Shown here: piece after piece, positions 24,201-27,200 of the stretch
How the letters are laid out: every line of letters starts with the position of its first letter
Numbering within the stretch: position 1 is the first letter of the stretch
Source of the DNA: Escherichia coli
GTDB taxonomy: Bacteria > Pseudomonadota > Gammaproteobacteria > Enterobacterales > Enterobacteriaceae
Strand: one strand, 5' to 3'
NCBI RefSeq assembly: GCF_017348835.2
Contig: NZ_CP071375.1
DNA: 64,000 nt
Position numbers: made by a program

Positions 24201-27200
24201 TGTGGGCAAGCGTAATGCCATACGGAGAGTTAACGTAAAACGGCTGCGCTTCAGAGGCGCTGGAGCTGCCAGCCGTGGGGTAACGCACATGACCAATGCC
24301 CATATTGCCCTGCAAACGCTGCATATGGCGAGCTTCAAATACATCGCTCACCAGCCCGTTCGCTTTACGCAAACGGAAGCAGTTATTGGCATCTATGGTG
24401 ATGATGCCGGCGGCATCCTGACCGCGATGCTGAAGCACCGTTAAGGCATCATAAATCGACTGGTTAACCGGCATAACACCGGCGATACCGACAATACCGC
24501 ACATACGTCTTTTTCCTCGTTAAGCCACATCTCAGAGCACTTACGCTCTGGGCAAGAAACTTGACGAGCTTTGCAGATAATCAAAAAACCATCTGATGAT
24601 AAAACTGAACTGCGGGATCAGCTGTGATTTGCTCCAGTCTTCGCTTTTCGACACCCCGGTAAAGGAGTCGAGAAAGAAGAGAATGGCGGCAACAATCAAC
24701 ACACCGCGCAACGCACCGAAACAGACGCCCAGCACCCGATCGGTGCCTGACAACCCCGTTTTCTCCACCAACTGGCCTATCACGAAGTTCACGATAGCAC
24801 CAACGATCAGGGTAGCGATAAACAGTACCGCGATGGCAATCCCATTTCGAACCAGTTCGTCTTCAAAGCCCGTAAACCAGACTGACAGGTAAGTGTAGTA
24901 ATGACTGGCAACAAAGAAAGCACAACCCCATGTCACCAGCGATAACGCTTCACGAACAAAGCCGCGGATCAGGCTAACCAGAGAGGAAAAAGCAATCACC
25001 GCGATTATGGCGTAATCAATCCAGACCATATGTGTCCTACGATTTTACGCCCTGTCATCCTGTTCGGGGCGCATTCTAACAGAAAAAGAAAACGTTTGCG
25101 TAGGGATTTCCTTCCCGCGCATCAATAAAAATGGCGCTGAAAAAATATTCAACGCCATCGACTTTTTATGCCTTTGCGGCATCGTGCAATGCGTGTCGGA
25201 TGCGGCGTAAACGCCTTATCCGACCTACGGTTCTACCCCTGCGTAGGCCTGATAAGACGCGCCAGCGTCGCATCAGGCAACGGCTGTCGGATGCGGCGTA
25301 AACGCATTATCCAACCTACGGTTCTACCCCTGCGTAGGCCTGATAAGACGCGCCAGCGTCGCATCAGGCAACGGCTGTCGGATGCGGCGTAAACGCATTA
25401 TCCAACCTACGGTTCTACCCCTGCGTAGGCCTGATAAGACGCGCCAGCGTCGCATCAGGCAAGACCGTATTAATTCGGCGTATAGCCCATTACCACGCCA
25501 CTTAAGCCAGAAAGTTGCTTCAACTCACCCAGCGAACCTTTCAGCTTATCTTTCGAGGCATCCGGCCCAACCAGAATACGGGTAATTTTACCCTGCACTG
25601 GCGTGGATGGCGACGTATAAACCCGATAACCGGCACCGCGCAGCTTACCGACAATTTCATTCACTTTATCGGCATTTTTCAGCGCACCCAGTTGCACAAC
25701 ATAGGCTTTACCCGTCGGTGCAGCTTTTTCTTCCACGACCGGCTTCGGTTCTGGCTTCGGCGCAGGTGGTGCTTCAACCTTTGGTTTAGGCGGCTCCACC
25801 GGTTTCGGCTTCGGTGGCGCGACCGGTGCAGGTTCCGGTTCAAACTCGGTGTTATTGGCTGCAATAGTGGCCGGATCGAGCGACGGTGCTGCGGCATCAC
25901 CTGCCCTCACCTCTTCCGCTGCGCCTTCCGGCGGCTGCGTCGGCAACGCCTGGGTGGCGGCTGGCATCATATCAGGCTCATCGCGATCGCCCGCTTTTGG
26001 AACCAGCGGGATAGCCGCAAACTCATCCTGATAATGTTTTTTCTGCCCGTCCAGCAGCCCTGGAAGTACAATCACCCCCAGCGCCACCAGCACGATCGTG
26101 CCCACTAACCGATTCTGAAACTTACTTGCCACCGCTTCTCCTCGCGTCAATCACTTCCATGACATGTGCGACCGTGTGGAAAGAACCACACACCAGCACG
26201 GTGTCTTCCGCTTTAGCGTCCGCCATTGCGGCATCCCATGCCTGCGCAACGCTATCAAATGATTTGCCGTTACCCAAATGCTCAAGCAGTTGTTCTGCCG
26301 TGGCACCGCGCGGCCCTTCCAGTGGCGCACAATACCAGTCATCAACCACGCTTTTCAACCAGGCCAGAGTTCCGGCAATATCTTTATCATGTAGCATACC
26401 GATAACCGCCAGCACGCGCCCGTTTTTCGGTAGCGCTTTCATACGCCCGGTGAGATATTCCGCCGCATGTGGATTATGCGCGACATCAAAAATAACGCGT
26501 GGCGACTCGCTCACAATCTGGAAACGTCCCGGCAAAATTGCGCTGGCAATCCCGTCGCGAATGGCATTTTCACTGACCTCCAGCCCGCTGGCACGCAGTG
26601 CCGCCAGCGCCGTTGCGGCATTCGGTTGCGGGACAAGCGGCAACGGCAGATTTTCCAGCGTGCCGTGAGCATCGCTAAACGCCCAGTAATGATCGGTGAC
26701 GGAATAGTTCCACTCAACGCCCCGACGTTGTAACAGTGCACCTTTTTCCTGCGCCACATCAGCAATGGTAGAAGGCATTTCCGGCTCACCGACAATTGCC
26801 GGTTTTTCGCTGCGGAAGATGCCTGCTTTCTCGCGACCAATACTTTCGCGATCTGGCCCCAGCCAGTCGGTATGATCCAGCGCAATACTGGTTACTACCG
26901 CGACATCGGCGTCGACAATATTGGTTGCGTCCAGACGACCGCCCAGCCCTACTTCCAGAATCACCACGTCAAGTTGTGCCTGTTTGAACAGCCACAACGC
27001 CGACAGCGTACCGTACTCGAAATAGGTCAGGGAAATATCACCGCGTGCCGATTCAATCTCCGCAAAAGAGGCGGTGTGGGCCGATTCCGGCAATTCCTGA
27101 CCCTGCACACGTACGCGCTCGGTATAACGCACCAGATGAGGCGAACTGTAGACGCCCACTTTGTACCCTGCCGCCATCAGAATCGACTCCAGCGTACGGC

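What the first reader, a model, noticed from the sequence alone, without database searches (positions are those of the whole stretch)
25194..25463. Three-copy tandem array of a ~90-bp REP-containing unit (BIME cluster) between cvpA and dedD
The same ~90-bp unit occurs three times head-to-tail with only a few substitutions (for example ccttatccgacc versus cattatccaacc). Such arrays are copy-number variable between strains and can bind DNA-structuring proteins or stabilise transcripts. It superficially resembles a repeat-spacer array but has no unique spacers.
Basis: seen in the sequence. Interest (0 to 1): 0.3.

Follow-up and report, generated by a model that had tools for sequence, protein, structure and literature searches.

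The report
Known REP repeat cluster, three copies
This is an ordinary E. coli "BIME-2" cluster of six small palindromic REP sequences sitting just after the dedD gene; strains carry anywhere from none to seven copies of its 91-bp unit, and the element and its behaviour are already well described.

Summary
Window 25194-25462 holds 3.0 head-to-tail copies of a 91-bp unit at 98% identity, between cvpA and dedD. Each unit is a y-type REP, a 14-nt linker, an inverted z2-type REP and a 7-nt linker. That makes it a BIME-2 with six REPs.

The K-12 orthologue has one unit. It is already catalogued as a BIME-2, with gyrase cleavage sites mapped in it in vivo.

Copy number at this site varies among E. 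coli and other Escherichia species. I saw 0, 1, 2, 3, 4, 5 and 7 units, plus rearranged alleles and one allele interrupted by IS1397. About two thirds of sampled complete genomes carry one unit. The exact allele in the window is in only 2 of 5,426 genomes.

Two internal units score above Rfam's threshold for naRNA4. That model is built on another BIME-2 array, REP325, so the match only restates the BIME-2 identity.

The array lies in the dedD 3' UTR. It starts 9 nt after the stop codon and sits upstream of a conserved terminator-like hairpin and the PurR-controlled cvpA-purF promoter region. Its likely role is as a local RNA-decay barrier, transcription attenuator and gyrase site. That role is inferred, not shown.

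Already known; low interest.

The parts
25194..25462 (.). Whole BIME-2 array: 3 tandem units of 91 bp, six REPs
   Evidence: TRF period 91, 3.0 copies, 98% matches; direct-repeat family D1 with spacing 91, 91
25195..25228 (-). y-type REP no. 1 (GTAG-first orientation on the minus strand). Identical to the single y REP of K-12. RNA hairpin -18.8 kcal/mol
25229..25242 (.). Tail-to-tail short linker GGTTCTACCCCTGC (14 nt). Repeated at 25320-25333 and 25411-25424
   Evidence: read from the sequence
25243..25278 (+). z2-type REP no. 1 (GTAG-first orientation on the plus strand). RNA hairpin on the transcribed strand -21.4 kcal/mol
   Evidence: (I7)
25279..25285 (.). Head-to-head linker AACGGCT (7 nt). 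Repeated at 25370-25376. Shared by multi-unit alleles of other strains and species
25286..25319 (-). y-type REP no. 2, carrying two substitutions. Hairpin weakened to -11.7 kcal/mol as minus-strand RNA
   Evidence: (two non-canonical pairs flagged)
25334..25369 (+). z2-type REP no. 2
   Evidence: (I8)
25377..25410 (-). y-type REP no. 3, identical to no. 2
25425..25460 (+). z2-type REP no. 3. On the transcript its stem starts 9 nt after the dedD TAA stop codon (25472-25470)
   Evidence: (I9)
25246..25316 (-). Rfam RF02564 (naRNA4) match: y REP no. 2 + head-to-head linker + z2 REP no. 1. 72.7 bits against a gathering score of 59.5
25337..25407 (-). Second Rfam RF02564 (naRNA4) match, 72.7 bits
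25130..25159 (-). Context: terminator-like hairpin (12-bp stem, then TTTATTGATG) downstream of the array on the transcribed strand. Conserved in Escherichia, Citrobacter and Salmonella
25086..25101 (.). Context: PurR-box consensus match (AAGAAAACGTTTGCGT) upstream of cvpA. The only match in the window
25470..26150 (-). Context: dedD, the upstream gene on the transcribed strand. The array lies in its 3' UTR
24541..25029 (-). Context: cvpA, first gene of cvpA-purF(-ubiX), downstream of the array

Best explanation
The feature is a BIME-2 (bacterial interspersed mosaic element, type 2). It consists of three tandem 91-bp units, each holding a y-type and an inverted z2-type REP palindrome joined by short linkers. 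It lies in the dedD-cvpA spacer of an E. coli chromosome.

Shown here:
- The anatomy of the array.
- Its orthology to the catalogued one-unit BIME-2 of K-12.
- Copy-number changes by in-register gain or loss of whole 91-bp units between strains.
- Its age: it is present in other Escherichia species.

Inferred, how it works:
1. The array is transcribed as the 3' UTR of folC-dedD (minus strand). Its six stable hairpins would act as a barrier to 3'-exonucleases and as a partial, hairpin-number-dependent attenuator. This would limit read-through toward the conserved terminator-like hairpin and the PurR-regulated cvpA-purF promoter. A dual stabiliser and partially Rho-dependent terminator role of this kind was recently shown for the six-unit BIME-2 array REP325.
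2. As DNA it is a transcription-independent gyrase site. Cleavage has been mapped in the K-12 orthologue.
3. The first hairpin starts 9 nt after the dedD stop codon, which is within the <16-nt range reported to reduce translation of the upstream gene.
4. Unit number drifts by slipped-strand or unequal homologous exchange, possibly aided by the REP-associated transposase TnpA-REP. One unit is a near-absorbing state, because a single unit offers no tandem homology for further expansion.
For: Anatomy:
- 91-bp period, three copies.
- Alternating y and z2 palindromes, each with the CTAC/GTAG tetranucleotide.
- Same REP types and same polarity relative to transcription as REP325.
- Rfam naRNA4 (REP325-based) matches at 72.7 bits on the minus strand, against 95-111 bits for REP325 itself.
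- No IHF consensus in the array, so it is not a BIME-1.
- The definition of BIME-2, and the statement that tandem copy number varies between strains, come from Ton-Hoang et al. 2012.

Known orthologue:
- 'BIMEs2 2437498-2437581 <cvpA-<dedD' carries gyrase cleavage sites (RifCfx 2, microcin B17 1) in Sutormin et al. 2019, Table DS3.

Copy-number series at this site:
- Intergenic lengths of 167, 258, 349, 440, 531 and 804 bp correspond to 0, 1, 2, 3, 4 and 7 units; 5 units were also seen.
- Systematic samples gave 38 of 59 and 40 of 60 chromosomes with one unit, 9 in each sample with three units, and 7 and 5 with four units.
- EDL933 (3 units) differs from other O157:H7 strains (4 units) by a clean in-register 91-bp change.
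- The BIME-specific element IS1397 is inserted in a z2 loop of this array in strain JNE25-003.

RNA structure:
- Individual hairpins fold at -18.8 kcal/mol (y no. 1) and -21.4 kcal/mol (z2), with z = -4.8 to -5.9.

Context:
- 9 nt between the TAA stop and the first stem.
- Terminator-like hairpin conserved across genera.
- PurR box.

Functional precedent:
- REP325 as dual terminator and stabiliser, with Rho-dependence only for the long array (Harris et al. 2026 preprint).
- The <16-nt rule, as summarised in PMC12306157.
Against: - No expression, RNA 3'-end, half-life or protein data for this locus were available, so every functional step is by analogy.
- Natural alleles with zero units exist. 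Two of the six REPs in this window are weakened (-11.7 versus -18.8 kcal/mol). Both argue that selection on the array is weak.
- The Harris preprint stresses that REP effects depend strongly on context and that terminal REPs do not generally lengthen mRNA half-lives.
- Among 35 distinct units there were only two compensatory double changes, and no clear excess of G.U pairs on the transcribed strand (17 versus 11). So there is no sequence-level proof of RNA-structure selection.
- A separate terminator-like hairpin lies just downstream and may do the terminating by itself.
Confidence: 0.85

Rival explanations
1. The array is selfish or neutral DNA with no measurable effect on its neighbours. It was seeded and amplified by the REP-associated transposase or by replication slippage, and it persists because it is harmless in a 3' UTR.
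For: - Alleles with 0 to 7 units all occur in viable natural isolates, as do fused or partly deleted REPs (235-, 329- and 334-bp spacers) and an IS1397-disrupted array.
- The window's own duplicated unit carries a damaged y REP.
- There is little covariation.
- All sequence requirements for TnpA-REP binding and cleavage described in vitro are present: GTAG, a stem mismatch, and the TGCC|TGAT and GGCC|TAC sites.
Against: - The site has kept y/z2 units since before Escherichia species diverged, and a REP-like palindrome sits there in Citrobacter and Salmonella.
- Gyrase cleaves the K-12 orthologue in vivo.
- REP325, a close analogue, has roughly 3- to 10-fold effects on its neighbours at its native locus.
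Confidence: 0.3
2. The units are genes for naRNA4-like small RNAs that bind the nucleoid protein HU and bridge REP cruciforms to condense the chromosome.
For: Two units exceed the Rfam RF02564 gathering score on the transcribed strand (72.7 versus 59.5 bits). Qian et al. 2015 reported HU- and naRNA4-dependent condensation for REP325.
Against: - The Rfam model is essentially a y + z2 BIME-2 unit, so the match restates the BIME-2 identity. REP325's own units score 95-111 bits.
- The 2026 preprint, which shares an author with the 2015 paper, found none of the following: a stable HU-naRNA4-cruciform complex, a nucleoid change on deletion or over-expression, or REP-REP Hi-C contacts.
- There is no evidence of a discrete RNA from this locus.
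Confidence: 0.05
3. The main role is translational. The stop-proximal z2 hairpin stalls terminating ribosomes and lowers DedD output, and the remaining units are passengers.
For: The stem starts 9 nt after the TAA stop. This spacing is the same in every allele with at least one unit. REPs fewer than 16 nt from a stop codon are reported to down-regulate translation (Liang et al. 2015, as summarised in PMC12306157).
Against: The primary paper could not be read here, and no list naming dedD was found. The idea does not explain the tandem amplification. There are no protein data.
Confidence: 0.2
4. It is a degenerate CRISPR-like repeat-spacer array, or a coding repeat.
For: Regular spacing of palindromic repeats.
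Against: - The sequences between the palindromes repeat with the unit, so there are no unique spacers.
- Two different palindromes alternate in opposite orientation.
- No CRISPR family was among the Rfam hits.
- The period of 91 is not divisible by three, and the small ORFs in the array are by-products of the repeat.
Confidence: 0.01
5. The three-copy state is an assembly artefact of a one- or two-unit locus.
For: Tandem repeats can be mis-assembled, and the exact allele is rare.
Against: Two independent complete genomes (PE164 and F2_81) carry the identical 901-bp sequence. Three-unit alleles with other sequences make up about 15% of sampled complete genomes.
Confidence: 0.02

Closest known systems
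The BIME-2 in the cvpA-dedD spacer of E. coli K-12 (listed as 'BIMEs2 2437498-2437581' in Sutormin et al. 2019, Table DS3)
   Same: Same locus and same flanks (99.5% identity). The K-12 y REP, z2 REP and 14-nt linker are identical to those of unit 1 of the window; the sequences after the z2 REP differ, because unit 1 runs into the inter-unit linker AACGGC where K-12 runs into the right flank AAGACC. The first hairpin lies 9 nt after the dedD stop codon in both.
   Different: K-12 has one unit (258-bp spacer) and the window has three (440-bp spacer). Units 2 and 3 of the window carry two private substitutions that weaken the y hairpin.
REP325 / naRNA4 (Rfam RF02564), the six-unit BIME-2 array between yjdM and yjdN
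   Same: Tandem y + z2 units, the same polarity relative to the transcribed strand, and a position between two co-oriented genes in the 3' UTR of the upstream one. The Rfam model matches the window array above threshold.
   Different: The period is 100 bp in REP325 against 91 bp here. The head-to-head linker is 13 nt against 7 nt, and the tail-to-tail linker is 17 nt against 14 nt. There are six units against three. Here z2 is the first hairpin after the stop codon; in REP325 it is y. The window scores 72.7 bits against 95-111. Experimental data exist only for REP325.
BIME-1 (y + z1 with a long L linker that binds IHF)
   Same: Contains a y REP paired with an inverted second REP.
   Different: The partner here is z2, not z1. 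The linker is short and has no IHF consensus. The element is tandemly repeated, whereas BIME-1 occurs as single copies.
REPINs and RAYT substrates (Pseudomonas REP doublets; E. coli TnpA-REP)
   Same: Inverted REP pairs with a conserved GTAG, a stem mismatch and CC|T cleavage motifs. Amplification and linker variation have been attributed to the Y1 transposase.
   Different: No RAYT gene lies in the window. The copy-number changes seen here are whole-unit and in-register, which plain homologous slippage explains equally well.

Membership tests
REP (repetitive extragenic palindromic) sequence | Imperfect palindrome of 30-40 nt with a mismatch or internal loop in the stem | tested here: met
   Six palindromes of 34-36 nt. 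The stems are 7 + 4 pairs (y) or 7-8 + 5 pairs (z2) around an internal loop.
REP (repetitive extragenic palindromic) sequence | Conserved GTAG tetranucleotide at the foot of the palindrome | tested here: met
   All six carry CCTAC/GTAGG. Some alleles in other strains have GCACAGG or GCGCAGG instead.
REP (repetitive extragenic palindromic) sequence | Extragenic, and highly repeated around the genome | tested here: met
   It lies between the dedD stop codon and the cvpA promoter region. Other REPs in the window are at about 34.8, 38.3 and 43.7 kb.
BIME-2 | Built of y and z2 REPs in inverse orientation | tested here: met
   The palindromes align to the y and z2 halves of the REP325-based Rfam model and to the REP325 units themselves. 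The K-12 orthologue is listed as a BIME-2. A direct comparison with the printed Bachellier consensus sequences was not possible because the figures are not held.
BIME-2 | Short linker (S) between REP and iREP, with no IHF-binding L motif | tested here: met
   The tail-to-tail linker is 14 nt, and there is no WATCAANNNNTTR match in the array. Ton-Hoang et al. state that BIME-2 linkers vary in length and sequence.
BIME-2 | Flanking or head-to-head motif of type s, l or r | not tested
BIME-2 | Occurs as tandem copies whose number varies between strains at a given locus | tested here: met
   Three units here. Other strains and Escherichia species carry 0, 1, 2, 3, 4, 5 or 7.
BIME-2 | Bound and cleaved by DNA gyrase | not testable with these tools
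   For the K-12 orthologue, Topo-Seq found 2 sites (Rif + ciprofloxacin) and 1 site (microcin B17), and 0 with ciprofloxacin alone or with oxolinic acid. There are no data for the three-unit allele.
Rfam RF02564 naRNA4 | Covariance-model score at or above the gathering threshold | tested here: met
   72.7 bits against 59.5 for 25246-25316 and 25337-25407 on the minus strand. The edge units score 38 bits.
Rfam RF02564 naRNA4 | Expressed as a discrete RNA that binds HU and affects the nucleoid | not testable with these tools
   There are no expression data. The function itself is disputed for the founding member.
CRISPR array | Identical repeats separated by unique spacers | tested here: not met
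   The inter-palindrome sequences are the same in every unit, and two different palindromes alternate in opposite orientation. No CRISPR family was among the Rfam hits.
Intrinsic (Rho-independent) terminator | G+C-rich hairpin followed directly by a U tract | tested here: not met
   No REP hairpin in the array is followed by a T run, and the scan reported none inside the array. The only terminator-like site is the separate hairpin at 25159-25130.
TnpA-REP (RAYT) substrate | REP with 5' GTAG and a stem mismatch, plus iREP cleavage motifs TGCC|TGAT and GGCC|TAC | tested here: met
   All the motifs can be read on the minus strand of each unit. Whether the host genome carries tnpA-REP, and whether it acts here, was not tested.

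The most novel reading that the evidence does not exclude
Unit number at this site may work as a fast-mutating expression dial. Longer arrays would give progressively stronger, partly Rho-dependent insulation of the PurR-controlled cvpA-purF-ubiX operon from folC-dedD read-through, or more stable dedD mRNA. On this reading the natural 0-7-unit allelic series is a set of quantitative regulatory variants, not neutral length polymorphism.
Probability: 0.15. Interest if true: 0.4.

Novelty: already known. Interest (0 to 1): 0.1.

Why it matters
It matters little beyond housekeeping. The region should be annotated as a BIME-2 (REP cluster) and not as an sRNA gene, a CRISPR-like array or an ORF.

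Two practical points follow:
- Rfam's naRNA4 model will flag ordinary BIME-2 units. Such hits should not be read as evidence for a nucleoid-organising RNA.
- The locus offers a ready-made natural series of 0, 1, 2, 3, 4, 5 and 7 units in otherwise near-identical flanks. This series could be used to test the recent claim that REP arrays act as length-dependent terminator-stabilisers.

The 91-bp length polymorphism is also a usable strain-typing marker; for example, EDL933 differs from other O157:H7 strains.

Tried and rejected
- **CRISPR-like array.** Rejected because there are no unique spacers, the palindromes alternate in orientation, and no CRISPR family was among the Rfam hits.
- **Coding repeat or small ORFs inside the array** (43-aa and 74-aa ORFs). 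Rejected because the period of 91 is not a multiple of three and the ORFs consist wholly of REP sequence.
- **BIME-1 or IHF site.** Rejected: no IHF consensus in the array.
- **naRNA4 sRNA gene.** The Rfam hit is real, but it reflects the BIME-2 unit on which the model is built, and the proposed function is disputed.
- **Covariation or strand-asymmetry test for RNA-level selection on 35 distinct units.** Inconclusive: two compensatory changes, and G.U pairs 17 on the minus strand against 11 on the plus strand.
- **Curated REP annotation in the MG1655 RefSeq record.** No repeat features were returned for this stretch, so the catalogue status was taken from Sutormin et al. instead.
- **Liang et al. 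2015 and Liang & Deutscher 2016.** Not held. The <16-nt rule is cited second-hand.
- **Supplements of the RepRanger and Harris papers.** They contain nothing specific on the dedD REP.
- **Sigma-70 promoter scan.** It found nothing convincing in the spacer. The promoter position is therefore not claimed; only the PurR box is.
- **A full census of copy number over all 5,426 genomes.** Not possible, because only 60 rows are listed per search. Two systematic samples were used instead.
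Full report
**Observation**

Tandem Repeats Finder reports one array at 25194-25462: period 91, 3.0 copies, 98% matches, no indels, score 524. It is the only long-period tandem repeat in the 64-kb window. An independent repeat finder gives three copies spaced 91 and 91 bp apart, plus short inverted repeats inside every unit.

Units 2 and 3 have identical REPs and T-T linker, and differ only where unit 3 meets the right flank (AAGACC instead of AACGGC).

The neighbours are cvpA (24541-25029) and dedD (25470-26150), both on the minus strand, with purF below and folC and accD above. RefSeq annotation of matching E. coli genomes names them the same way. The observation and its coordinates are confirmed.

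**Anatomy**

Each unit has four parts:
- a 34-nt palindrome GTCGGATGCGGCGTAAACGCCTTATCCGACCTAC;
- a 14-nt linker GGTTCTACCCCTGC;
- a 36-nt palindrome in the opposite orientation, GTAGGCCTGATAAGACGCGCCAGCGTCGCATCAGGC;
- a 7-nt linker AACGGCT.

Both palindromes carry the GTAG/CTAC tetranucleotide and an internal mismatch. These are the hallmarks of E. coli REPs as defined by Ton-Hoang et al. 2012.

The first palindrome is y-type and the second is z2-type. Both align to the two hairpins of the Rfam model RF02564, and to the y and z2 elements of REP325 in MG1655, which I fetched for comparison.

The array has y plus z2 in inverse orientation, short linkers, no IHF consensus and tandem repetition. 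That is the published definition of a BIME-2.

The REP tail motif occurs 12 times in the window against 0.84 expected by chance, and six of those are here.

**Already catalogued**

In K-12 the same spacer is 258 bp and holds exactly one unit. Its y REP, z2 REP and 14-nt linker are identical to those of unit 1 of the window; after the z2 REP, K-12 runs into the right flank (AAGACC) where unit 1 runs into the inter-unit linker (AACGGC).

Sutormin et al. 2019, Table DS3, lists it as 'BIMEs2 2437498-2437581, <cvpA-<dedD'. The gyrase cleavage-site counts are 0 with ciprofloxacin, 2 with rifampicin plus ciprofloxacin, 1 with microcin B17 and 0 with oxolinic acid. So the element is a known BIME-2, and gyrase acts on it in vivo in K-12.

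**Copy-number variation**

I compared the spacer across 5,426 complete E. coli genomes. Spans differ by multiples of 91 bp. Fetched examples show the following:

| Spacer (bp) | Units | Example |
|---|---|---|
| 167 | 0 | MMC-J-0078 |
| 258 | 1 | MG1655 |
| 349 | 2 | YZMc3-1, LH10-b-1 |
| 440 | 3 | this window, EDL933, SM107 |
| 531 | 4 | several O157:H7; also the AF20 isolate and strain 25DN |
| 804 | 7 | ERP001 |

A five-unit allele was inferred from span alone (H106). Rearranged alleles of 235, 329 and 334 bp have fused or truncated REPs.

A flanks-only query gave a clean systematic sample of 60 chromosomes:
- 40 with one unit;
- 9 with three units;
- 5 with four units;
- 1 each with zero, five and seven units;
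- 2 rearranged;
- 1 with IS1397 inserted in the loop of a z2 REP of a five-unit array.

The earlier sample of 59 chromosomes was similar: 38 with one unit, 9 with three, 7 with four, 1 with seven, 1 with zero, and 3 rearranged. Both samples come from database genomes, which over-represent some clones, and they share some genomes.

Within the O157:H7 clone, EDL933 has three units and other strains have four. The EDL933 unit 1 is an in-register chimera of units 1 and 2 of the four-unit allele. That is the signature of homologous slippage or unequal exchange.

**History of the array**

Species representatives carry the following:
- Escherichia albertii and E. whittamii: two units.
- Two unnamed Escherichia lineages: one unit and seven units.
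- Citrobacter amalonaticus: a single degenerate y-like REP at the same place.
- Salmonella arizonae: a single z-like palindrome at the same place.
- Morganella: none.

Multi-unit alleles in all these genomes share the inter-unit junction GGCAACGGCTGTCGG or a close variant of it. A one-unit allele cannot generate that junction by simple duplication of itself. I therefore infer that the multi-unit state is old and that one-unit alleles are contractions. This would also explain why one unit is the commonest state: with no tandem homology left, re-expansion is hard.

The zero-unit allele is exactly the one-unit allele minus 91 bp, between two GGCAA microhomologies.

The window's exact allele occurs in only two genomes, both pig isolates (PE164 and F2_81). 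Its closest flank haplotype has two units, or three units of different sequence. So the duplicated, mutated unit is a recent lineage-specific event.

**Folding**

On the transcribed (minus) strand the z2 hairpins fold at -21.4 kcal/mol (z = -5.4 to -5.9) and y no. 1 folds at -18.8 kcal/mol (z = -4.8). The two mutated y REPs drop to -11.7 kcal/mol (z = -2.2). As plus-strand DNA they lose the canonical hairpin altogether.

The whole region folds more stably than shuffled sequence on both strands.

Across 35 distinct units from all alleles, 770 of 840 stem cells are Watson-Crick pairs. There are only two compensatory double changes, and no clear excess of G.U pairs on the transcribed strand. The sequences are too similar to prove selection on RNA structure.

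**Context and likely mechanism**

On the minus strand the order is:
1. the dedD stop codon TAA (25472-25470);
2. 9 nt of spacer;
3. the six REP hairpins;
4. a small hairpin;
5. a 12-bp terminator-like hairpin followed by TTTATTGATG (25159-25130);
6. a perfect PurR-box match (25086-25101);
7. cvpA.

The terminator-like hairpin is conserved in Escherichia, Citrobacter and Salmonella. So the array is the 3' UTR of folC-dedD, upstream of the probable terminator and of the purine-regulated cvpA-purF(-ubiX) unit.

The closest experimentally studied analogue is REP325, a six-unit y/z2 array with the same polarity between two co-oriented genes. A 2026 preprint reports three things about it:
- It stabilises the upstream mRNA and attenuates transcription into the downstream gene.
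- The Rho-dependence appears only with the long array.
- It does not compact the nucleoid.

By analogy, I take this array to be a local decay barrier and attenuator, and also a gyrase site. Its stop-proximal hairpin lies within the <16-nt range reported to depress translation of the upstream gene (second-hand).

None of these functional steps was or could be tested here. Three things argue that any selection on the array is weak: the zero-unit alleles, the decayed REPs, and the IS-disrupted array.

**The Rfam hit**

Two internal units exceed the gathering score of RF02564, naRNA4 (72.7 versus 59.5 bits). REP325's own units score 95-111 bits. The model is in effect a y-linker-z2 unit, so the hit confirms the BIME-2 identity. 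It should not be taken as evidence for a nucleoid-organising sRNA, particularly as that function is now disputed.

**Verdict**

The element is a member of a thoroughly described class. Its K-12 orthologue is already catalogued, and strain-to-strain copy-number variation is a known property of BIME-2s that is now documented for this site. Novelty: already known. Interest: low. The only mildly interesting residue is the natural 0-7-unit allelic series, which could serve to test length-dependent REP regulation.

Noticed in passing
L025 3781-5838 (E. coli JNE25-003, NZ_AP045053.1): IS1397 is an IS3-family element reported to insert specifically into REPs of E. coli. Here it sits in the loop of the third z2 REP of a five-unit array at this same dedD-cvpA site. 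The junctions read ...GACGCGCCA|TGAACTG...CAGTTCA|GCCAGCGTC.
   Followed up: partly
L029 381-820 (EDL933) versus L002 1381-1911 (O157:H7 F8797): Within the O157:H7 clone, EDL933 has three units and other strains have four. The difference is a clean in-register 91-bp change that leaves a chimeric first unit.
   Followed up: yes
window 25130-25159 (minus strand): A terminator-like hairpin (12-bp stem followed by TTTATTGATG) lies between the array and the cvpA promoter region. It is conserved in Escherichia, Citrobacter amalonaticus and Salmonella arizonae, and is probably the real folC-dedD terminator.
   Followed up: partly
window 25086-25101: A perfect match to the PurR operator consensus (AAGAAAACGTTTGCGT), the only one in the window, lies upstream of cvpA-purF.
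   Followed up: partly
window 25286-25319 and 25377-25410: The two duplicated y REPs carry two substitutions each. These cut hairpin stability from -18.8 to -11.7 kcal/mol as RNA and abolish the canonical hairpin as plus-strand DNA. This allele is in only 2 of 5,426 complete genomes, both pig isolates.
   Followed up: yes
L006 781-947 (E. coli MMC-J-0078): This 'empty' allele has no REP at the site. It equals the one-unit allele minus exactly 91 bp, between two GGCAA microhomologies (...CATCGGGCAA|GACCGTA).
   Followed up: partly
L026, L027, L028 (dedD CDS 651 nt versus 663 nt elsewhere): There is a 12-bp in-frame length polymorphism inside dedD in some strains. It changes the flank-to-flank span from 969 to 957 bp without changing the BIME.
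   Followed up: no
window 63438-63554 (+) and 61057-61131 (+): An ALIL pseudoknot match (Rfam RF01497, 120 bits) lies 2.3 kb after a tRNA-Arg(CCU) gene. ALIL is, from memory, the frameshift element of IS3-family insertion sequences, which would suggest an IS or integrated element next to the tRNA.
   Followed up: no
window 34813-34836, 38267-38303, 43687-43700: Other REPs are present in the window, including a y/z2 tail-to-tail pair with a 9-nt linker at 38267-38303.
   Followed up: no
window 58001-58034: A perfect hexanucleotide microsatellite, (TTGATA) x 5.7.
   Followed up: no
K-12 cvpA/dedD spacer (literature, PMC8743547): A genomic SELEX screen lists an RpoN (sigma-54) holoenzyme binding peak in the cvpA-dedD spacer of K-12. 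I found no convincing GG-N10-GC motif by eye.
   Followed up: no
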